From the UHGV virus genome UHGV-0194661: 37,411 nt of DNA; one strand, 5' to 3'. The notes under the pieces are model-generated. The model saw only the letters and a program-made list of their open reading frames with translations, was not told where the DNA came from and made no database searches. A program made the position numbers and the translations under genes. Positions 7 to 20,675 of this stretch are shown piece after piece. Origin of the DNA: a virus. The first letter of the stretch is position 1. Every line of letters begins with the position of its first letter.

Positions 7-1521
7 ATGGCACAGACATCTGTAGATATTGCTATGGAAAAAACGTCACAGGAGATTCTTGAGATGTGTAAAATTATCCGCACAATGGTGACGGATGTAG
101 AAAAATTCGACTGGAAAAACTTCTGGGCGAATATGGCAACAGGAGAGCTGTTCTCCACAAAGTTTTATAACTATGAAAGCTCAACGAATCCAGCCGGAGA
201 AAAGCTGAACGCTTCAAAAGGACTGGTTGCAGTTCCTTCCACAGACAAGGTGAAGAATCAGGATGATTTCGCTGGAAGAAATGCTTTCAATTACATTGAC
301 TGTAATTTCACCGTGACTGATTCGGGCGACAAGATTCCGGTTGCGATTAAGGGCGGTAATGGTTTCCACAACGCCGGGAAGGTTGATGTGGGAATTATGA
401 CACCACCTACATACTGGGGCGAGGAAGAGTTTGACGGATATTACATCATCCATTTTTCTGACACTCCGCATCCGGAAGTTGGTTGTATTATTCCGACTCC
501 GTGGACAGATGAGAATCTTGGATATGGCATGGTCACAAAGTATTATGCCGGTCTGATTGACGGAATCGCATACAGTTCCTCCGGAAATGCGATTTACAAC
601 TTTGCTTCTGCGCAGTTGGCAATCGATGAGTTGAAAAAGAAAGGTGCTGGATATGTTGGTTCCGGTTCGGAGCGTACTGCATATCTGCTCTGTATGCTGT
701 GGATTAAGTATGCGACAAAGAATAGTCAGAAATACTTTAGAGGTTGTGTTGATACTGGCGGTCATCAGTACAAAGTTGCTGAAACTGGCGAGAATGTAAA
801 TTACGTGGTAATTACAACAACTCAGGCGAAGAACTTCTATGTCGGAGAAACTGTATCAATTGGTACTCCGGGAGCTAACAACAATGTTGACCGTGGACAG
901 GCAAGCATGAATGCAATTGCAAAGAATGTGAGAATTACAGCTATCGAAGCTATTGCTAATACGGCAAACAGTAAAGTGTACGTTGAAAAGGTTGGCATGA
1001 CGATTACTGCGGATGCTTATATTTCAACAATGCCACTGCATTCCGGTACGACAGACGGTGTACTTGGAGCTGACGGATACATTTCTAATGACGGTAAGCA
1101 CGCATTTAAGCTTGGTGGTATCGAGGAAGGTGTTGGAGCTTACTTCATCTCCATGAATGAGATATGGAACAAGACAACAGCCTCTATGGTTGATTACTAT
1201 GTGCGTCCAAAGGGCGTTGCTTGGTCTGCAACAGCTTCAGGATGGAAGAAAGTTGCTACAGTAGATATGGTTGACTCTAGTGACTGTTGGATTGGAGATA
1301 TCAACATTGACCTCGAGACTGGTGCTGATTATCTAAAAACGGTCGGAACGGGTGACTCTGTTGGTGTTGGAGATAGACTCTATAAAGGTGGTACGGGTAC
1401 TGGTTGGAGACAAGCTGCAAAGCGTGGGGGCCTCGGGAACGGTGGGAGCGGTGGTTTCTGCTTCTCGGCTCTCTGGAGCGGGGTCTCTGGGGCGCTTTGG
1501 TACTGCGCCTTCTGCGTTTAG
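7..1521 (+). CDS. DGR target protein: tail-fibre/receptor-binding-like structural protein whose C-terminal ~33 codons are the variable region (VR)
   Basis: 504-aa ORF starting 6 nt into the window. C-terminus (KRGGLGNGGSGGFCFSALWSGVSGALWYCAFCV) is encoded by a ~98-bp segment repeated downstream, with differences only at adenines of the downstream copy. It sits as the last gene of the tail module if the window is circular. Confidence 0.75.
   Translation: MAQTSVDIAMEKTSQEILEMCKIIRTMVTDVEKFDWKNFWANMATGELFSTKFYNYESSTNPAGEKLNASKGLVAVPSTDKVKNQDDFAGRNAFNYIDCNFTVTDSGDKIPVAIKGGNGFHNAGKVDVGIMTPPTYWGEEEFDGYYIIHFSDTPHPEVGCIIPTPWTDENLGYGMVTKYYAGLIDGIAYSSSGNAIYNFASAQLAIDELKKKGAGYVGSGSERTAYLLCMLWIKYATKNSQKYFRGCVDTGGHQYKVAETGENVNYVVITTTQAKNFYVGETVSIGTPGANNNVDRGQASMNAIAKNVRITAIEAIANTANSKVYVEKVGMTITADAYISTMPLHSGTTDGVLGADGYISNDGKHAFKLGGIEEGVGAYFISMNEIWNKTTASMVDYYVRPKGVAWSATASGWKKVATVDMVDSSDCWIGDINIDLETGADYLKTVGTGDSVGVGDRLYKGGTGTGWRQAAKRGGLGNGGSGGFCFSALWSGVSGALWYCAFCV
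1422..1519 (+). repeat. DGR variable region (VR) at the 3' end of the target gene, ending at the stop codon
   Basis: Aligns base-for-base with 1616..1714. All ~18 mismatches are positions where the downstream copy has A and this copy has G/T/C. Confidence 0.8.
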
Positions 1522-1560
1522 TTCCTACCACCTTTCAGGGGTGAATTTTTCGCAGAAAAA

Positions 1561-1578
1561 GAGGGGCTCTTCCCCTTA
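1561..1578 (+). other. GC-rich hairpin (gaggggctcttcccctt) immediately 3' of the VR; possible DGR homing/IMH-associated structure or terminator
   Basis: GGGG/CCCC stem with flanking A-T and G-U pairs, seen directly in the sequence. No T-run follows. Confidence 0.35.
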
Positions 1579-1615
1579 ATTAAGTTAAAGAGAAAATACA
1601 GGACTTGTCGTGCTG

Positions 1616-1714
1616 GCGTGGGAACCTCAGGAACGGTGGGAACGGTGGTTTCTGCTACTCGAATCTCAGGAACGAGGTCTCTAGGACGAATTGGAACTAC
1701 GCCTTCTGAATTTT
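1616..1714 (+). repeat. DGR template repeat (TR)
   Basis: Non-coding copy of the VR. In the VR reading frame it carries AAC/AAT/AGG/TAC codons (four AAC, three AAT) whose adenines are the only sites differing from the VR. Confidence 0.8.
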
Positions 1715-1895
1715 ATTATGCAAACATTATGCACCGCTGGGTGCTTGCACGGCATTTCGCAACAATAAGTTGTACCGAAAGGTCTTAAATAAGTAACAAG
1801 AAAGGGAGCTGGTGCCACGGCAGTGATACTGGCAGTCTATACGAATTGGTATAGACTGGGGCTAGTAGAAAAACCGAAAGCCCCTCGGAACTAAA
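1715..1895 (+). ncRNA. Structured TR-RT spacer (putative DGR RNA 3' portion / cDNA priming region)
   Basis: Non-coding 180 nt between TR and RT. Contains a perfect 10-bp hairpin cagtctatac/gtatagactg at 1833..1858 and a GGGCT/AGCCC hairpin at 1859..1884. The role is by analogy with characterised DGR spacer RNAs. Confidence 0.4.
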
Positions 1896-3050
1896 ATGAA
1901 ACGATACTGTAAGAACATTGATATAACAAGCAGAGAATTAATTTCAGAAGCAACATGGAGCTGTATCAGTAATAAGATTACACGTAGCGACACGATTCAT
2001 ATGTTCATGGAATACACGGGACTTCCGTATCGGTTCTTGATGGATGTGGCTCAAGAGAACAGATACATGCTAGACAGCATTGTAGAAACCGTCATAGATG
2101 GTATCCGACAAGAAATCCTGGAACAGAAGTATATCGTAAAGAAAATCCGTTACAGAATCAAGAAAGATTCTTGTACTGGAAAGCTACGAAATATCGGAAT
2201 CCAAGATATTAAACAGCAAATCTACGATTATATCGCAGTATACGGCTTGAAAGAATTGTTTGAAAAGAAACTCGGCTTTTATCAATGCGGAGCAGTTAAA
2301 CGTAAAGGTAATGAATTTGGAGCTGGAGCTATCAAGAAATGGTTGGCAGATAAAAATATTCGTTGGGCATGGCAAGCAGACGTTCGGCATTATTATGAAA
2401 ATATAAATAAAAATGTTCTGAAAAAGATGTTGAAACGTGATGTGAAGAATGACAGGCTTCTTCATTTAGTGTTCTTCTTGATTGATACATTCGAGTATGG
2501 ACTTTCCATAGGTTCGTATTTGAGTCAGTTCCTAGCGAATTACTACTTGAGCAAGGCTTATATTTACGCAAGCCAACAGTTCAAGGTTCGCAAGAGGAAA
2601 GATGGAACGGTCAAGAAAGTAAGGCTTGCAAGCCATGTGCTATTTCAGATGGATGACATCATTTTCTTCGGTCACAGCAAGAAAGACATGAAAATGCTAG
2701 TGAAAAGATTCAACGAATATATCAATAAAGAGTTAGAACTTGAATTGAAAGAAACAACTCATTTCATTGATTTGCAAACAGAATATGTAGATATTCTTGG
2801 ACGGAAGATATCAAGAAAGAATCTGACAATACGTTCCTCAACATTCCTGAAAGCAAGGAGAACTTATAAGAAAGCCTATTCTTATGTCTGCCACGGAAAA
2901 GAGATTCCGCTGAAACTTGCAAGGAGCTGCGTGGCAAGATACGGAGCAATTAAACACACGGATAGTAAGAGATTCCAAAGACGTTACCACATTGAAACTA
3001 TAATTAAGATGGCTAAGAAAGCAATCGCACGAGCCACGAAAGGAGAATAA
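1896..3050 (+). CDS. DGR-type reverse transcriptase
   Basis: 384 aa. Has the DGR-RT hallmark motif LSIGSYLSQ ([I/L]GxxxSQ) and the catalytic FQMDDIIFFG (xMDD) box. AT-rich gene directly downstream of the TR. Confidence 0.8.
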   Translation: MKRYCKNIDITSRELISEATWSCISNKITRSDTIHMFMEYTGLPYRFLMDVAQENRYMLDSIVETVIDGIRQEILEQKYIVKKIRYRIKKDSCTGKLRNIGIQDIKQQIYDYIAVYGLKELFEKKLGFYQCGAVKRKGNEFGAGAIKKWLADKNIRWAWQADVRHYYENINKNVLKKMLKRDVKNDRLLHLVFFLIDTFEYGLSIGSYLSQFLANYYLSKAYIYASQQFKVRKRKDGTVKKVRLASHVLFQMDDIIFFGHSKKDMKMLVKRFNEYINKELELELKETTHFIDLQTEYVDILGRKISRKNLTIRSSTFLKARRTYKKAYSYVCHGKEIPLKLARSCVARYGAIKHTDSKRFQRRYHIETIIKMAKKAIARATKGE

Positions 3051-4199: not shown

Positions 4200-4376
4200 A
4201 TGACAGAGCAGACAGTAAAAGAAATTATTAAAAGTTTCGCTTATGGACTTTCAGCGAAAGAAATCTCAGACAATGAGGGAACATCACTGGAAACTATGCA
4301 GAAGTTCGCAGAGGAACATGCAGCGGAGATCGAACAGAAGAAGGTAGAACTGAAAGAAGGTGGATGGTATGAGTAA
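4200..4376 (+). CDS. Hypothetical 58-aa protein between holin and lysin; not in the ORF track
   Basis: ATG at 4200 three nt after the holin stop. Runs in frame to TAA at 4374..4376 and overlaps the lysin start. Confidence 0.35.
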   Translation: MTEQTVKEIIKSFAYGLSAKEISDNEGTSLETMQKFAEEHAAEIEQKKVELKEGGWYE

Positions 4377-5439
4377 ACTTATCATTGATGTCAGCTATCA
4401 CAATGGAGTCATCAACTGGGAAAGAGTCAAGGCGTCAGGATGCGCCGGAGCTATCCTTAGATGTGGATATGGAGATGATATCGCATCACAGGACGATAAG
4501 CAGTGGGTGAGAAACCTTGCAGAGTGTGAAAGACTTTGTATTCCGGTAGGAGTATATCTGTACAGCTATGCTACTTGTGACAGACAGGCACAGAGTGAAC
4601 TTGCTCATATCTTAAGACTGATTAAAGGTCATACATTTCAGTTACCTATCTTCATTGATGTGGAAGAGCCGGGGACACAGGGATATGCACCTAAATGCTG
4701 TGAGATTGTCTGTGAAGGACTTAAAGCGAATGGTTATACTCCGGGAATTTACGCATCCTTAAGCTGGTTCAATAACTATCTTGGCAGCGTGCGCGGAAAA
4801 TATGTCGAGTGGATGGCAAGATACAAGAATCTTCCGGAAGATACATACAATGGTCAGTATTCAATTTGGCAGTATTCTTCTGGCGGTCAGGTGGATGGAG
4901 TCAATGGAAGAGTTGATGTCAACCATTGCTATATGGACTTTGGTGGAAGTGCACAGCCTGTTACACCTTCTGCTAAGCCGGCACCAGCTGAAAAAAAAGA
5001 CTTAGGACAGGTCGATATCACATATCAGGCTTTCACAGATAAGTGGTGGCCAGCAGTGACAAATAAATCTGATTGGGCTGGCAAAGGTGACAACGTTCCG
5101 ATCAAGTGGCTTGCTATCAAAGTCAGCAAGGGAAGTATCCGCTGTCGAGTATACACAAGAAAGAGTGGCTGGCTGCCATACCTGACATTCGGAAACAGCT
5201 ATGATTTGAATGACAAAGTAAATGGAATCCTCGGAGACGGTTCAGAGATTCTTGCAGTAGAACTGTACTACATCACACCGGAAGGATATAAGTACAAGAT
5301 GGTTCACTACAGAGTTTCTGTACAGAACAATCCGAACTTCTACGCAGATCAGGTCGATACGCTGAAAGCAAGCGGTATGGACGGATATGCCGGAGACAAA
5401 TACAGATTCATTGACAAGTTCCAGGCATGGATTGAGTAA
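4360..5439 (+). CDS. Endolysin: GH25 muramidase catalytic domain plus C-terminal putative cell-wall-binding domain
   Basis: LIIDVSYHNGVINWERVKASGCAGAILRCGYG fits a GH25 N-terminus. A Pro/Ala linker (PVTPSAKPAPAEKK) precedes a ~180-aa C-terminal domain. The real start is more likely the ATG at 4369 (MSKLII), 5-6 nt after AAGGTGG. Confidence 0.75.
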   Translation: MDGMSKLIIDVSYHNGVINWERVKASGCAGAILRCGYGDDIASQDDKQWVRNLAECERLCIPVGVYLYSYATCDRQAQSELAHILRLIKGHTFQLPIFIDVEEPGTQGYAPKCCEIVCEGLKANGYTPGIYASLSWFNNYLGSVRGKYVEWMARYKNLPEDTYNGQYSIWQYSSGGQVDGVNGRVDVNHCYMDFGGSAQPVTPSAKPAPAEKKDLGQVDITYQAFTDKWWPAVTNKSDWAGKGDNVPIKWLAIKVSKGSIRCRVYTRKSGWLPYLTFGNSYDLNDKVNGILGDGSEILAVELYYITPEGYKYKMVHYRVSVQNNPNFYADQVDTLKASGMDGYAGDKYRFIDKFQAWIE

Positions 5440-5446
5440 AAAAGAT

Positions 5447-5471
5447 GCCCCGGAGCATTTGACTCTGGGGC
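5447..5471 (+). terminator. Weak hairpin after the endolysin
   Basis: gccccggag / ctctggggc stem with one mismatch and no T-run. Confidence 0.3.
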
Positions 5472-5626
5472 GTAAATATTGTATCATGTGAGGGGGCAAA
5501 AAGGGGGCAGAACATTGTACTTTGTTGTACGGTTTCAGTGCTGAAAATGCCTTAAAGTGCGATATTTCGCAGTAGTTTGTACCTATTTATATATACAGGT
5601 ACTCCCCTAGACAGCTTTGAAGCTTT

Positions 5627-5679
5627 CCCCGCAACCCCAGTATTTACTAGGAATTCTGAGGTTTGCGGGGTTCTTTTTT
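5627..5679 (+). terminator. Rho-independent terminator (ccccgcaa...ttgcgggg + T9)
   Basis: 8-bp GC-rich stem with a long loop, followed by ttcttttttg. Confidence 0.45.
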
Positions 5680-5706
5680 GTTCTCATGGGGCTTTCATGG
5701 GGCTCA

Positions 5707-5933
5707 CTATAAAATTTTTATTGCTTTTAATTGCTCGTTTCGTTTGCTTTCTAACTTCTGTGTGACGTGCAGATAAATTTCTTTTGTAATTTTGCTGTCA
5801 TTATGCCCAAGCCTTTTTGAGATGCTGTCGATATCAATTCCTTGTCCCATTAGCAGACTTGCATGTGTATGTCTTGGTGTGTGTGGCGTAATGCTTCTGC
5901 CGTAATGCTTCTGCCGATAGCAAGAAATCTCTC
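5707..5933 (-). pseudogene. C-terminal remnant of a tyrosine recombinase/integrase, disrupted by a 14-bp tandem duplication
   Basis: Minus-strand translation ...GRSITPHTPRHTHASLLMGQGIDIDSISKRLGHNDSKITKEIYLHVTQ...KAIKIL* carries the integrase box II (HxxR, catalytic Tyr in EIYLHV). Upstream the frame is broken at the duplicated gtaatgcttctgcc (5888..5901 and 5902..5915) and stops occur in all frames. No box I Arg region is present. Confidence 0.7.
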
Positions 5934-6065
5934 ACGAATATTACCCGGCGTTGAGCTTCGATACGATGGTTGACTGGCCTAGAATCTTCATAAATGATTT
6001 ACATGCTCCACAATTCCGATTATAAGTGGATTGCTTGACCGTTCCTGTTGACGCAGGGGCGTTAT

Positions 6066-6611
6066 TTATTTCAGCAGATTTGCAATACAGAGCTTAAGGT
6101 CATCATAGATTCCAACAGAAATCTCATCATCAAAAGAATATTGATTGGAGTCTTCTGTGTTACCAAAAAAGTAAGTCTGAACAGTCTGCGTCATTGGATT
6201 CACAATCCAGTATTCACGAACACCGGCTGTGCGGTATTTGAACAGCTTTGTAAGGTAATCCATACGCTGACTGCTTGGTGATACGATTTCAATAATGAAA
6301 TCTGGGGCACCATTGCATCCACGGTCATTAATCTTGCCTGGATCACAGATCACTGAGACATCTGGTTCTACATAGTTATGATTATCCTGATTCAGAAAAA
6401 CAGCAAATGGAGCAGGCAGAACTTCGCAAGGACCTCCGTGGGATTTAATATAATCCCGGATTGTTGCGGAAAGTTCCATTACAAGTTTCTGATGAAGATA
6501 ACTCGGTGGAGCCATGTCATAGATCTGACCGTCAATCAGTTCTGCACGCTGCCCATCAGGAAGAGCGTAGATGTCTTCAATTGTGTAGTTGTTTGATTTC
6601 GGTAATGGCAT
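6066..6611 (-). CDS. Uma2-family (DUF820, PD-(D/E)xK) endonuclease
   Basis: 181 aa. C-terminal ...DFIIEIVSPSSQRMDYLTKLFKYRTAGVREYWIVNP matches the Uma2 signature (EIxSPS...D...K..Y...GV.EYWIVdP). Confidence 0.65.
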   Translation of the reverse strand: MPLPKSNNYTIEDIYALPDGQRAELIDGQIYDMAPPSYLHQKLVMELSATIRDYIKSHGGPCEVLPAPFAVFLNQDNHNYVEPDVSVICDPGKINDRGCNGAPDFIIEIVSPSSQRMDYLTKLFKYRTAGVREYWIVNPMTQTVQTYFFGNTEDSNQYSFDDEISVGIYDDLKLCIANLLK

Positions 6612-6636
6612 GCAATCACGTCCTTTCTTAATTACT

Positions 6637-7983
6637 TTAAGGTTGATGTTCTTGTTTCATTTTTTGACTAATACGATATTGTTCCGCATCTGGAACATCA
6701 ATAAATTCAACTGTTTTATCAAAATTCTTCTTTACAACAGCTTTGATCTCATCAAGAGTAACATTGAAAAATTCTCTTCGAGTATTTACCATATTTAATT
6801 TTCTATCTTCAAAGGCTCTGTGCAAAGCGGTTTCAAGTGCTGGAGCATCATCGGAAAAAATCATAGCATGTACATCAAAATTGAATGGAACAGATGCGTC
6901 ACCCAACTCATCAACTCGATCCTGAGGATCTAATCGACGGGTCATTCCGATTTTATATACATTAGGACCAAAAGCACCAATATTAGAAATAACATATACA
7001 TATCCTGCACGCTGGTTAGCTTCTCTATAGTCAATATCTTTCATAGCTTTATCAATGTCATTTAATTGAGACTCCAGTTCCAGCTTCTTGTCAAGCAAGT
7101 CTTTATTTTCTGGATCTGACTGTAATTGGATGAGCAAATGCTCATATGCGGTCTGATAGTGAGTTTGTTCTTTTTCTATTTTCTTTCGTTGAGCTTCAAT
7201 TTCCTTTTGTAAACGAGCAGCTTCTCTTAATTCTGCACGAGCAGCTTTTTGAGCTTCTTTTTCTTCTTGTTTCTTTTGTTGATATTCAAAAGATAGTCTC
7301 AATTCTTTTACTTTTAGGTCTAAGTAAGCAGGTGTTATTGAGATATTCATAATTGTGCCCAATTTAGAAATTGTTTCAGCAGATTTATATATTTTATTAA
7401 GTGAGGCATCAAAATTAGTATACTTAACTTTCGAGATCAGCTCATCGCACTCAGTATTAAAAGCTCGCAAAAGCAACTTCTGAGTATCTGAAACCATTTT
7501 CTTTCCTTTGGCAGAACTTCCATTTACCTGCCATGTGGTAACTCCGGAGACTGCAAGTTTATTTTTTATCATATCTTTCTGTTTAGAACGAATTTTGGCA
7601 AGTTCTTCTTTATAATCAAGAGCATTAGCAAATTCATAGGTTGGTTTGTAAAGACCAAATTCTTGAACAAGAATTTCATCATCAAGAGTAACAATTTCTT
7701 TTTTCTTACAATTTATTTCTTGATTCAGTTTATCGATTTCTTTTTGCCTTTTAAGTCGCTCTTTTTCAATTTTTTCAGTTTCTTTTTGAAAGCTTTGATT
7801 CAAGTTTAATAATTCATCCTGTTTCTGCTGCATGTTATTATTTAATTCTCGAATTGTATCTTTCAGCATAAGAGCATTTTGCATTTCCGGGGTAAGCAGT
7901 TCTTGTAAGTCGTTATATTTTTGTTGCAATTCTGCTAATTCTGCTTTGTACTGATTTCCTTTGAATGTGTCTAAAAATCCCAT
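6637..7983 (-). CDS. DUF4041 coiled-coil protein with C-terminal T5orf172 (GIY-YIG-like) domain
   Basis: 448 aa. Long K/E/Q-rich coiled coil, then GYVYVISNIGAFGPNVYKIGMTRRLDPQDRVDELGDASVPFNFDVHAMIFSDDAPALETALHRAFEDRKLN typical of T5orf172/MUG113. Confidence 0.6.
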   Translation of the reverse strand: MGFLDTFKGNQYKAELAELQQKYNDLQELLTPEMQNALMLKDTIRELNNNMQQKQDELLNLNQSFQKETEKIEKERLKRQKEIDKLNQEINCKKKEIVTLDDEILVQEFGLYKPTYEFANALDYKEELAKIRSKQKDMIKNKLAVSGVTTWQVNGSSAKGKKMVSDTQKLLLRAFNTECDELISKVKYTNFDASLNKIYKSAETISKLGTIMNISITPAYLDLKVKELRLSFEYQQKKQEEKEAQKAARAELREAARLQKEIEAQRKKIEKEQTHYQTAYEHLLIQLQSDPENKDLLDKKLELESQLNDIDKAMKDIDYREANQRAGYVYVISNIGAFGPNVYKIGMTRRLDPQDRVDELGDASVPFNFDVHAMIFSDDAPALETALHRAFEDRKLNMVNTRREFFNVTLDEIKAVVKKNFDKTVEFIDVPDAEQYRISQKMKQEHQP

Positions 7984-8051
7984 TTTTTATCCTTCCCCCT
8001 TGTTCCTATGAGTACACCACAAACTCATATATAATCTCTTACGAGGTTATA

Positions 8052-8513
8052 TCACATCATTTCAACCACTACTAGATTCGGAATGAAGTATATAATATAG
8101 TTATCAACGGTAGTATATACTCCATACTTATCACGGTAGCAGCTGATACATTCTTCCAGATATTCTTCTGTAACATCTAGAAAATCTGCAATTTCATATT
8201 TGTTTTGACATCCAGCATTGAACGCGTGGATGATTCCAACAAGTCCGATCAGGCGGTTATAGCCATGTAATCGGGCTTGACGTTCCTGTTTCCGGTTCTC
8301 CAGTTTGGACTGATCTCGAATATCACCTGTGGAAGTATAGTAGTGTCCAAGTTCTTCAGCAAGAACATTGGCTTTTTGTCGTGACGTCTTAATATCATGC
8401 CGGATAGCAATTTTGTTTCCTTTTATTCTTCCATCTCCGCTTTGCAGTGGCTTTTCCTTTACCACTAATCCAATATTGCGAGCTTCGTCTAAAAGTATTT
8501 CATAAGAATTCAC
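8052..8513 (-). CDS. ImmA/IrrE-family metallopeptidase (anti-repressor protease) with variant EELGH motif
   Basis: 153 aa. VLAEELGHYY occupies the position of HExxH. Immediately downstream of an XRE repressor, as in ImmR/ImmA pairs. Confidence 0.55.
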   Translation of the reverse strand: MNSYEILLDEARNIGLVVKEKPLQSGDGRIKGNKIAIRHDIKTSRQKANVLAEELGHYYTSTGDIRDQSKLENRKQERQARLHGYNRLIGLVGIIHAFNAGCQNKYEIADFLDVTEEYLEECISCYRDKYGVYTTVDNYIIYFIPNLVVVEMM

Positions 8514-8574
8514 TTACAACACCTCCATCATAATTGTACTAAGCAATTTGTCCTTTAAAAGAGGACTATGGAGA

Positions 8575-9060
8575 TTAGAAGTTTTCGTCATCCATGATGT
8601 CATCATCATGTTGCCTCATTTCATCTGTGACTTCTATATCGGTACGTTCATGAGCTGCCTGGACGGCCAACTCTTCTTCCATTTGCTGGTTCACAAGCAG
8701 ATTTTTTGAATAGGTAAGGACTCTTTTCTGATTCGGAGAAGAGAGTTTTTCGTATATATTAAGTAGTTCTTTATGCTCTCCGTGAAATTTATACACATTA
8801 TTCTTAAATTTATCTGCTATTTCTTTCGGAGCTTCTTTTCCGGAGAAATTTGTATCCATCTGTTCCCAGCCCATTAAATATGCCGGAGATGTATCCAATG
8901 CCCTTGCGATTAATTCTATTTTATCAGAAGGAATATTGCCGATTACGCCACTTTCGTATCGTTGAATTGTTTGACGGCTTACACCAACACTTTTTGCTAA
9001 ATCTTCTAATGTCATTTTACGTTCAATTCGTTTACTTTTGATATTTTCTTTCAATCCCAT
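8575..9060 (-). CDS. XRE-family HTH repressor (cI/ImmR-like)
   Basis: N-terminal KRIERKMTLEDLAKSVGVSRQTIQRYESG is a classic Cro/C1 HTH. Divergently oriented to a Cro-like gene. Confidence 0.75.
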   Translation of the reverse strand: MGLKENIKSKRIERKMTLEDLAKSVGVSRQTIQRYESGVIGNIPSDKIELIARALDTSPAYLMGWEQMDTNFSGKEAPKEIADKFKNNVYKFHGEHKELLNIYEKLSSPNQKRVLTYSKNLLVNQQMEEELAVQAAHERTDIEVTDEMRQHDDDIMDDENF

Positions 9061-9094
9061 TTTTTCACCTCCAGTAACTAATTACTATATCTGT

Positions 9095-9122
9095 ATTATA
9101 ACATAAATTACGCAATATGCAA
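9095..9122 (-). promoter_or_regulatory. Putative repressor promoter (minus strand): -35 TTGCAT (revcomp of 9117..9122), 16-nt spacer, -10 TATAAT (revcomp of 9095..9100)
   Basis: Read directly from the sequence. Overlaps the TTACGCAATA repeat copy at 9108..9117. Confidence 0.4.
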
Positions 9123-9143
9123 CGAAAATAAACGAAAAAGCAC

Positions 9144-9172
9144 TTGACACGTTACAAAATAAGGTGTACTAT
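9144..9172 (+). promoter_or_regulatory. Putative early rightward promoter: -35 TTGACA (9144..9149), 17-nt spacer, -10 TACTAT (9167..9172); flanked by direct repeats AATTACGCAATATG (9105..9118) and AGTTACGCAATACG (9174..9187)
   Basis: Consensus -35 with 17-bp spacing. The two repeat copies lie 69 bp apart, bracketing the promoter, as operator sites would. Confidence 0.5.
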
Positions 9173-9208
9173 AAAGTTACGCAATACGTGACAAGAAAGG
9201 AGGATATC

Positions 9209-20603: not shown

Positions 20604-20675
20604 GGACCATTAGTTCAGTGGTAGAACATTCGCCTCATAAGCGATATGTCGTAGGTTCGATCCCTACATGGTCCA
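20604..20675 (+). tRNA. tRNA with CAU anticodon (Met; could alternatively be tRNA-Ile2 by lysidine modification)
   Basis: 7-bp acceptor stem GGACCAT/ATGGTCC, D-arm AGTTCAGTGGTAGAAC, anticodon loop CTCATAA, T-arm GTAGGTTCGATCCCTAC, discriminator A. No encoded CCA. Confidence 0.7.

What the first reader, a model, noticed from the sequence alone, without database searches (positions are those of the whole stretch)
5700..5935. Integrase reduced to a C-terminal fragment and broken by a 14-bp tandem duplication
The minus strand encodes only the last ~75 aa of a tyrosine recombinase (RSITPHTPRHTHAS...LGH...EIYLHVTQ). Upstream of this the sequence gtaatgcttctgcc occurs twice in tandem (5888..5901 and 5902..5915), which shifts the frame. 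Stops follow in every frame even if one copy is removed, so the N-terminal two-thirds (including the box I Arg) are absent. A tandem repeat tcatggggct x2 (5686..5707) abuts the gene's stop, and a + strand terminator lies at 5627..5679. A phage with an otherwise complete genome but a dead integrase suggests a decaying prophage, a phage that now relies on a helper recombinase, or a recent deletion at the att-proximal end.
Basis: seen in the sequence. Interest (0 to 1): 0.55.

Follow-up and report, generated by a model that had tools for sequence, protein, structure and literature searches.

The report
Multiply broken phage integrase pseudogene
A gut-bacterium phage with an otherwise complete genome and an intact attachment site carries only the wreck of its integrase gene, hit by at least five separate mutations, which is an ordinary kind of gene decay.

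Summary
The 14-mer GTAATGCTTCTGCC is tandemly duplicated at 5888-5915. The minus strand encodes the C-terminal ~67 residues of a tyrosine integrase (Pfam PF00589, E 2e-10).

Residues ~95-138 of the same integrase lie at 6042-5910. Compared with intact 382-aa orthologues in related phages, the gene carries five lesions:
- a 5' deletion of the promoter and codons 1-95;
- an in-frame 546-bp deletion of codons 139-320, which removes the box I Arg;
- the 14-bp duplication;
- a +1 frameshift;
- L327P in the otherwise invariant HTLRH motif.

The same allele, duplication included, is 100% identical in an independent metagenome scaffold. There it sits next to tRNA-Thr(GGT), so it is not an assembly error.

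The surrounding features form an attP:
- a 19-bp core at 5603-5621, matching the tRNA-Thr 3' end;
- a terminator hairpin;
- GGGGC-N6-GGGGC repeats on both arms.

The window is a circularly permuted, otherwise complete genome with no other recombinase. The locus is a mosaic, with breakpoints at the att core and inside the remnant. Next to the remnant lie two defence-type genes, Uma2 and PD-Lambda-1.

The most likely origin is recombination with a defective prophage. This is a known kind of event and of low interest.

The parts
4360..5439 (+). Endolysin (GH25). It is the last late gene and marks the left side of the attachment region.
   Evidence: Pfam Glyco_hydro_25, E 6e-22. 115 relatives were found in IMG/VR.
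5491..5512 (+). P-arm tandem 11-bp repeat AGGGGGCAAAA/AGGGGGCAGAA. Candidate arm-type integrase-binding site.
   Evidence: the repeat finder family D2. GGGGC-N6-GGGGC occurs only twice in the whole window against 0 expected. The same motif sits on the P' arm of L065-type att sites.
5603..5621 (+). att core TCCCCTAGACAGCTTTGAA. Positions 5603-5616 are identical to the 3' end of host tRNA-Thr(GGT).
   Evidence: Similarity to attL (L081, L133) and attR (L018, L057) junctions starts or stops here. The tRNA was identified with ARAGORN on L093. The pattern occurs in 68 Lachnospiraceae genomes. The window switches from L065-type to L031-type sequence within this block.
5627..5679 (+). Terminator hairpin plus T-run. 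It would terminate the lysin transcript in the phage form and the tRNA-Thr transcript in the integrated attL form (inferred).
   Evidence: Fold and inverted repeat I3. Host and L065-type sites carry a different hairpin at the same place.
5684..5705 (+). P'-arm tandem 11-bp repeat TCATGGGGCTT/TCATGGGGCTC. Candidate arm-type integrase-binding site, lying 1 nt from the int stop codon.
   Evidence: It is identical in L031, whose integrase is intact.
5707..5910 (-). Integrase remnant, C-terminal piece (residues ~317-382 plus stop). It contains HTPRH (L327P), LGH and Tyr361.
   Evidence: tblastn 88% identity to L065 Int residues 316-382. Pfam PF00589. Leu is invariant at this position in the 9 of 14 database homologues that span the motif.
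5888..5915 (.). 14-bp tandem duplication (2 x GTAATGCTTCTGCC) at the junction of the internal deletion. It shifts the frame by +2.
   Evidence: Identical in L081. Absent from the intact genes L065 and L031.
5910..6042 (-). Integrase remnant, N-terminal-domain piece (residues ~95-138), with a +1 insertion near 5945.
   Evidence: tblastn 85% identity to residues 95-127 and 77% to residues 127-139, in a different frame. Nucleotide identity to L065 is 71% with a 1-nt gap.
6040..6065 (.). Conserved hairpin that ends the moron cassette (minus strand: CGCCCCTGCGTCAACAGGAACG). The 5' deletion of int starts directly after it, with microhomology GTCAA.
   Evidence: Terminator scan. The same hairpin lies between a moron gene and the recombinase gene (its upstream region where shown) in L026, L042, L011, L037 and L166.
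6066..6611 (-). Uma2-family putative nuclease (PADLOC candidate PDC-S03). With the int remnant it forms a cassette that is near-identical in L081: 100% over 5847-6350, with 5 mismatches in 6350-6599.
   Evidence: Pfam Uma2, E 3e-32. PADLOC, E 1e-48..
6637..7983 (-). PD-Lambda-1-type defence protein (DUF4041 + T5orf172/MUG113).
   Evidence: Pfam. PADLOC PD-Lambda-1, E 3e-156. 99-100% identical copies in L165 and L166.
8052..9060 (-). Intact lysogeny switch: ImmA-like metallopeptidase (8052-8513) and Xre/CI-type repressor (8575-9060).
   Evidence: Pfam Peptidase_M78 and HTH_3.

Best explanation
The region is the lysogeny end of a temperate siphovirus of Mediterraneibacter-group Lachnospiraceae.

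Shown:
- It holds a complete-looking attP. This consists of a P arm with GGGGC repeats, a 19-bp core equal to the 3' end of tRNA-Thr(GGT) plus TTTGAA, a replacement terminator, and a P' arm with GGGGC repeats.
- The attP is followed on the minus strand by a tyrosine-integrase pseudogene with five lesions.
- Lesion 1: loss of the promoter and codons 1-95. The deletion runs from just after the hairpin that closes the upstream moron cassette, with microhomology GTCAA.
- Lesion 2: an in-frame 546-bp deletion of codons 139-320 between imperfect 12-bp repeats GCTAYYGGYAGA. It removes the box I Arg (R219) and most of the catalytic domain, everything upstream of the HxxR motif.
- Lesion 3: the 14-bp tandem duplication at that junction.
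- Lesion 4: a +1 insertion.
- Lesion 5: L327P in HTLRH.
- No other recombinase is encoded in the window.

Inferred:
- The gene cannot make an active recombinase, so the phage cannot integrate or excise by itself.
- The dead allele was not made in this genome. It and the adjacent Uma2 gene form a ~0.8-kb cassette that was recombined into an otherwise functional phage.
- The likely donor was a defective prophage or defence island at the tRNA-Thr locus.
- The likely route was integrase-mediated exchange at the att core plus homologous crossovers, possibly helped by the phage's own RecT/YqaJ. One crossover lies inside the integrase 3' end (~5800-5846) and one lies further upstream.
- The remnant persists because it sits between selected elements (attP and terminator on one side, defence morons on the other), not because it has a function.
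For: Homology and lesions:
- Pfam hit.
- Intact 382-aa orthologues at the same position in L065, L072 and the L031 contig.
- Piece-by-piece alignment.

Reality of the allele:
- L081, from an independent ENA assembly, is 100% identical from 6075 to ~5847, including the duplication and the +1 insertion.

attP:
- attR junctions with host NUDIX/glnS/purA genes in L018 and L057.
- attL junctions with tRNA-Thr in L081 and L133.
- tRNA identity.
- The arm motif occurs only twice in the window, flanking the core.

Mosaic structure:
- 5450-5603 is 100% L065-type.
- 5623-5800 is ~99% L031-type.
- 5847-6632 is 99-100% L081: identical to 6350, 5 mismatches in 6350-6599, and similarity fading over the last ~30 nt.
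- 6408-8378 is 97% L165/L166.

5' deletion:
- The same hairpin is followed by ~170 nt and an intact integrase in L166. It also sits between a moron gene and the next region in L042, L011, L037 and L026; in L026 that region is a serine recombinase gene.

Complete excised-order genome:
- The window's two ends are contiguous in L001, L026 and L079.
- Terminase, portal, capsid, tape measure, holin and lysin ORFs are intact.
- RecT, YqaJ and RusA are present.

Remnants at the tRNA-Thr locus in host genomes:
- L116, L133 and L018 carry Uma2 remnants.

Precedents:
- Phage TP-778L acquired a truncated integrase by recombination between its integrase and a flanking remnant (PMC3952083).
Against: - The order and mechanism of the recombination events are inferred from breakpoints only. 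No donor carrying the whole segment 5623-8378 was found.
- Exact-match scans of IMG/VR, JGI metagenome contigs and GTDB genomes found no further copy of the duplication or of the 5' junction. The allele is therefore known from two assemblies only.
- A metagenomic chimera joining related co-occurring phages at conserved stretches cannot be excluded for the window as a whole without reads.
- The arm-site role of the GGGGC repeats is untested.
Confidence: 0.8

Rival explanations
1. Helper-dependent temperate phage. The phage lost its integrase but keeps a working attP and repressor switch. It is integrated and excised in trans by the integrase of a co-resident relative with the same core and arm type, such as an L031-type phage.
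For: - The core, terminator and P' arm are ~99-100% identical to those of L031, whose integrase is intact.
- The ImmA/Xre switch is intact.
- The same dead allele is seen both in attL form (L081) and in attP form (the window).
- The P-arm/P'-arm type switch falls exactly in the core, as expected from site-specific exchange.
Against: - L081 differs from the window upstream of Uma2 (ATPase and D12 methylase instead of PD-Lambda-1). It differs again in the P' arm. It is therefore a different element, not this phage integrated.
- The hybrid attP could have formed before the dead allele arrived.
- No co-resident helper was observed.
Confidence: 0.2
2. Ex-temperate phage that now propagates only lytically, or as an unintegrated episome. 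The lysogeny module is simply decaying, as in virulent derivatives of temperate dairy phages.
For: - Excised-order complete genome.
- Multi-hit integrase pseudogene.
- No other recombinase and no partition genes among the ORFs scanned.
- TP-778L is a plaque-forming phage with a truncated integrase (PMC3952083).
Against: - The repressor, ImmA, antirepressor and attP show no damage. This is unexpected if lysogeny had been abandoned for as long as five integrase lesions suggest.
- That objection disappears if the dead allele was imported recently.
Confidence: 0.3
3. Assembly artefact. The duplication, or the whole mosaic, would be produced by mis-assembly of related strains.
For: - The breakpoints fall in stretches conserved among relatives (core 19 bp; ~45 bp in the integrase 3' end).
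- No reads are available.
Against: - The duplication, the +1 insertion and both deletions are identical in the independently assembled L081, which has different flanks.
- A 19-bp identity is short for assembler-induced chimerism (my inference).
Confidence: 0.05

Closest known systems
Streptococcus thermophilus phage TP-778L (Ali et al. 2014, PMC3952083)
   Same: A viable phage whose genome carries only a truncated integrase gene next to the att region. The truncation is explained by homologous recombination between the prophage integrase and an integrase remnant of an older phage flanking the integration site.
   Different: - Here the remnant has five lesions, including an internal in-frame deletion and a 14-bp duplication.
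- The crossover pattern implies that a defence-gene cassette came in along with it.
- Nothing here has been shown experimentally.
Mosaic formation between temperate phages and defective prophages by Rad52-like recombinases (De Paepe et al. 2014, PMC3945230)
   Same: Sharp identity breakpoints with relatives, and a phage-encoded RecT plus YqaJ exonuclease.
   Different: That work concerns lambdoid coliphages. Here one breakpoint coincides with the att core, which points to site-specific rather than homologous exchange at that point.
Lambda-Int-family tyrosine integrases of tRNA-targeting temperate phages (Pfam PF00589)
   Same: Sequence homology, position next to attP, orientation, and an attP core that duplicates the 3' end of a tRNA gene.
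   Different: The box I Arg, most of the catalytic domain (residues 139-320), the N-terminal 94 residues and the reading frame are lost. It is a relic of the family, not a working member.
Virulent derivatives of temperate phages that keep lysogeny-module remnants (for example Lactobacillus phage LL-H and S. thermophilus Sfi19/Sfi11; from my own knowledge, not checked here)
   Same: An integrase remnant and an att-like region inside an otherwise complete phage genome.
   Different: In the window the repressor/ImmA switch is still intact.

Membership tests
Functional tyrosine recombinase (lambda Int family) | Box I catalytic Arg (R219 in the intact orthologue, GLRFGE) | tested here: not met
   Codons 139-320 are deleted. 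No match to that part of the L065 Int anywhere in the window.
Functional tyrosine recombinase (lambda Int family) | Box II H-x-x-R, second His and nucleophilic Tyr | tested here: met
   HTPRH, LGH and EIYLH are present in the 5707-5910 frame. However, the Leu between His and Arg is changed to Pro, whereas it is Leu in all nine database homologues that span the motif.
Functional tyrosine recombinase (lambda Int family) | One continuous ORF with a start codon and an N-terminal DNA-binding region | tested here: not met
   Codons 1-95 and the upstream region are missing. The remaining pieces lie in different frames because of a 14-bp duplication and a +1 insertion.
Pfam PF00589 Phage_integrase (homology only) | Significant profile match above the gathering threshold | tested here: met
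   E 2.2e-10, 41 bits against a cut-off of 27.1, covering profile positions 114-170 of 172.
Phage attP targeting a tRNA gene | Core identical to the 3' end of the tRNA, with both junction types seen in relatives | tested here: met
   - 5603-5616 equals the tRNA-Thr(GGT) 3' end.
- attL is seen in L081 and L133; attR is seen in L018 and L057.
Phage attP targeting a tRNA gene | Arm-type integrase-binding repeats on both arms | tested here: inconclusive
   GGGGC-N6-GGGGC occurs only at 5493-5508 and 5688-5703, against 0 expected. Binding was not tested.
Pseudogene | Several disabling lesions relative to intact orthologues at the same genomic position | tested here: met
   Two deletions, one duplication, one frameshift and one substitution at an invariant residue, compared with L065/L072 and the L031 contig.
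PD-Lambda-1 defence system (neighbouring gene 6637-7983) | Sequence match to the PADLOC PD-Lambda-1 model; anti-phage activity | tested here: met
   Sequence match only: E 3.4e-156 over residues 14-446. Anti-phage activity cannot be tested with these tools.

The most novel reading that the evidence does not exclude
The phage is an integrase-free 'hitch-hiker'. It kept a fully functional attP and repressor switch. It would rely on the integrase of co-resident relatives that target the same tRNA-Thr site. The integrase wreck would serve mainly as a homology handle that lets the Uma2 plus dead-integrase cassette (with PD-Lambda-1 or a methylase island next to it) move between phages and the chromosomal tRNA-Thr island.
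Probability: 0.15. Interest if true: 0.5.

Novelty: new member of a known kind. Interest (0 to 1): 0.22.

Why it matters
- For annotation: this genome should not be scored as a self-sufficient integrating temperate phage. Gene callers will report a 47- or 77-codon 'integrase' that is non-functional.
- For phage biology: it is a clean, base-resolved example of exchange between phages and defective remnants at a tRNA integration hot spot. That exchange can give a phage a dead integrase together with new defence genes.
- The locus also defines the tRNA-Thr(GGT) attB/attP of a large family of human-gut Mediterraneibacter phages.
- None of this changes current understanding.

Tried and rejected
- megablast of 4300-9200 against GenBank phages: no match.
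- Rfam on 5300-6200: nothing, so the hairpin region is not a known RNA family.
- ARAGORN finds no tRNA at the att site in the window. Only the last 13-14 nt of tRNA-Thr are present there.
- Exact-match scans for the duplication, for the single-copy junction and for the 5' junction found nothing in IMG/VR, JGI metagenome contigs or GTDB genomes.
- The window's 47-aa ORF is not on record.
- The short 'integrase' proteins found in the protein database first suggested a conserved mini-protein. Their contexts showed contig ends or split genes instead, so I dropped that idea. The remnant also has no start codon or ribosome-binding site in a usable frame.
- I first considered that the Uma2 module had replaced the integrase 5' end, or that Uma2 was host DNA picked up by aberrant excision. 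L166, L042 and L026 show that the same cassette-end hairpin normally precedes a recombinase gene. A simple microhomology deletion therefore explains the 5' truncation, and Uma2 is a phage moron.

Full report
**1. What is in the sequence**

The 14-mer GTAATGCTTCTGCC is present twice in tandem at 5888-5901 and 5902-5915. Tandem Repeats Finder ranks it as the strongest tandem repeat of the window, with score 60 and 100% match.

The minus strand from about 5937 to the stop codon at 5709-5707 is open. It reads ...GRSITPHTPRHTHASLLMGQGIDIDSISKRLGHNDSKITKEIYLHVTQKLESKRNEQLKAIKIL.

With one 14-mer copy removed, this translation matches Pfam Phage_integrase at E 2.2e-10, covering profile positions 114-170 of 172.

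The short repeat next to the stop codon has period 11 (TCATGGGGCTT/TCATGGGGCTC) and lies at 5684-5705.

The plus-strand hairpin at 5627-5670 is real and is followed by a T-run to 5679.

**2. The intact gene and the true anatomy of the remnant**

Searching IMG/VR with the neighbouring endolysin gave 115 related phage loci. In L065 and L072 an intact 382-aa integrase sits at exactly this position. The contig of L031 has one too.

tblastn of the L065 integrase against the window gives three pieces:
- residues 316-382 at 5910-5710 (88% identity);
- residues 95-127 at 6042-5944 (85% identity);
- residues 127-139 at 5945-5907, in another frame.

Nucleotide alignments define the lesions.

- **(a) 5' deletion.** The homology begins at about 6042, directly after a hairpin (minus strand CGCCCCTGCGTCAACAGGAACGGTC). 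In L166 the same hairpin is followed by about 170 nt of upstream region and an intact integrase. In L026, L042, L011 and L037 it likewise lies between a moron gene and the next region, which in L026 holds a serine recombinase gene. The hairpin end (GGAACGGTCAAC) and integrase codons 94-97 (GGACAGTCAAGC) share GTCAA. The promoter and codons 1-95 were therefore lost by a microhomology deletion.
- **(b) Internal deletion.** Codons 139-320 (546 bp, in frame) are missing. The loss lies between two imperfect repeats, GCTACTGGCAGA (A-T-G-R, codons 135-138) and GCTATCGGTAGA (A-I-G-R, codons 317-320). It removes the box I Arg (R219 in GLRFGE) and most of the catalytic domain, everything upstream of the HxxR motif.
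- **(c) Duplication.** The 14-bp tandem duplication lies exactly at that junction and shifts the frame by +2.
- **(d) Insertion.** One extra base near 5945 shifts the frame again.
- **(e) Substitution.** HTLRH has become HTPRH. Leu is invariant at this position in the nine of the 14 database homologues that span the motif.

HxxR, LGH and Tyr361 remain, but the gene cannot encode an active recombinase.

**3. The duplication is real**

A look-up of the exact Uma2 protein found an ENA scaffold, L081 (sample ERZ28635324). From window 6075 down to about 5847 it is 100% identical to the window. This stretch includes the 5' junction, the +1 base, the deletion junction and both 14-mer copies.

Beyond those limits its flanks differ. 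An ATPase and a D12 methylase lie upstream of Uma2 in place of PD-Lambda-1. On the other side L081 has an L065-type integrase 3' end and P' arm, followed by the body of a tRNA.

The allele therefore exists in two different molecules and is not an assembly error. No further copy was found by exact scans of IMG/VR, JGI metagenome contigs or GTDB genomes.

**4. The surroundings form an attP for tRNA-Thr(GGT)**

- L081 and L133 continue past window position 5603 into ...GGTCGGGGGTTCAAGT. This is the 3' half of tRNA-Thr(GGT) (ARAGORN on [Ruminococcus] torques ATCC 27756). The 28-mer occurs in 68 Lachnospiraceae genomes, many of them Mediterraneibacter.
- L018 and L057 share the lysin-side sequence up to the core. 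They then run into host genes: NUDIX, glnS, a GntR-type aminotransferase and purA.
- The block common to all forms is TCCCCTAGACAGCTTTGAA (5603-5621).
- The hairpin after it replaces the host's own tRNA terminator in the attL configuration. This role is inferred.
- GGGGC-N6-GGGGC occurs only twice in the 37 kb, against 0 expected. The two sites, 5493-5508 and 5688-5703, flank the core in the same orientation.
- In L065-type sites the same AGGGGGCAAAAAGGGGGCAG motif is found on both arms.
- These repeats are good candidates for arm-type integrase-binding sites. Binding is untested.

**5. The genome as a whole**

The last ~92 nt and the first bases of the window are contiguous in L001, L026 and L079. 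The window is therefore a circularly permuted complete genome in the excised gene order: lysin, attP, int, repressor.

Intact genes include terminase, portal, capsid, tape measure, holin and lysin. The ImmA/Xre switch, an antirepressor and RecT/YqaJ/RusA are also intact.

No other tyrosine or serine recombinase is present. This rests on Pfam scans of 37 ORFs and on tblastn with three recombinase types used by relatives.

**6. Mosaic structure**

Segment-wise identity is as follows:

| Window segment | Closest relative | Identity |
|---|---|---|
| 5450-5603 | L065-type | 100% (about 82% to L031) |
| 5623-5800 | L031-type | about 99% (70-80% to L065 and L081) |
| 5847-6632 | L081 | 99-100% |
| 6408-8378 | L165 / L166 | 97% |

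- In the L081 segment the match is identical to 6350, has 5 mismatches in 6350-6599, and fades over the last ~30 nt.
- The first switch falls inside the 19-bp core. This is what site-specific exchange between two att types would produce.
- The second switch falls inside the integrase 3' remnant, which indicates a homologous crossover.
- Host genomes show a graveyard of related remnants at this tRNA. L116, L133 and L018 carry Uma2 fragments next to the core or to the host flank. L133 has an Abi-like gene where the integrase should be.
- L166 carries PD-Lambda-1 (99% identity), a broken Uma2, the hairpin and an intact but different 370-aa integrase. PD-Lambda-1 and Uma2 are therefore ordinary morons of the integrase-repressor slot.

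**7. Interpretation**

Shown: a multi-hit integrase pseudogene, an intact-looking attP, no substitute recombinase, and a mosaic locus.

Inferred: the dead integrase plus Uma2 cassette was imported into a functional phage from a defective element at the tRNA-Thr locus. This probably happened after tandem integration, followed by a homologous crossover further upstream, or by a double crossover.

Two papers describe the same kind of event. TP-778L of S. thermophilus obtained its truncated integrase by recombination with a flanking remnant (PMC3952083). Lambdoid phages take up DNA from defective prophages through Rad52-like recombinases (PMC3945230).

The data cannot decide whether this phage now lives lytically or is mobilised in trans by a related integrase. 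The near identity of its core and P' arm to those of the integrase-proficient L031 keeps the second option open.

**8. Verdict**

The gene is not only a C-terminal fragment. The damage is neither recent nor a single event, and it is not at the att-proximal end.

This is a well-documented example of a known phenomenon, and its interest is low.

Noticed in passing
window 7-3050 (target ORF 7-1521; VR 1422-1519; TR 1616-1713; RT 1896-3050): A diversity-generating retroelement sits in the tail-fibre region. A reverse transcriptase (PADLOC RT 2e-16; weak Pfam RVT_1) follows a 98-nt template repeat. That repeat is 82% identical to the 3' end of the upstream 504-aa ORF. In the stretch I inspected by eye (e.g. 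GGGAACC vs GGGGGCC), mismatches fall at template adenines.
   Followed up: partly
window 6066-7983 (-): Two defence-type morons lie between the integrase remnant and ImmA. One is a PD-Lambda-1 homologue (DUF4041 + T5orf172, PADLOC E 3e-156). The other is a Uma2-family nuclease (PADLOC candidate PDC-S03, E 1e-48).
   Followed up: partly
L116 900-1100; L133 (tRNA-oriented) 5926-7600; L018 9275-9370: In Mediterraneibacter genomes the tRNA-Thr(GGT) locus (dtd - tRNA-Thr - ... - NUDIX - glnS) holds assorted prophage debris. This includes Uma2 fragments directly after the tRNA terminator, an Abi-like gene in place of the integrase, and an orphan holin-lysin pair.
   Followed up: partly
L026 9433-11136 (-); L166 6699-7811 (+): Close relatives of this phage use other recombinases in the same slot: a 567-aa large serine recombinase and an unrelated 370-aa tyrosine integrase. 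The integration module is therefore freely exchanged in this family.
   Followed up: no
L150 5213-6315; L151 2794-3895: In two Logan assemblies the orthologous integrase is called as two genes (261 or 257 aa, plus 104 aa). This is either a frameshift or stop in those phages, or a sequencing error.
   Followed up: no
L081 1-1957: In the other carrier of the dead-integrase/Uma2 cassette, the genes upstream of Uma2 are a 343-aa ATPase-like protein (cut by the contig end) and a D12 DNA methyltransferase. This looks like a different defence set.
   Followed up: no
window 20604-20675 (+): The phage carries a tRNA-Met(CAT) gene just upstream of the terminase genes.
   Followed up: no
window 5622: There is a single G immediately after the att core, where L031, L065 and the host sites all have C. 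It is the only base in 5603-5631 that differs from the host site L133.
   Followed up: no
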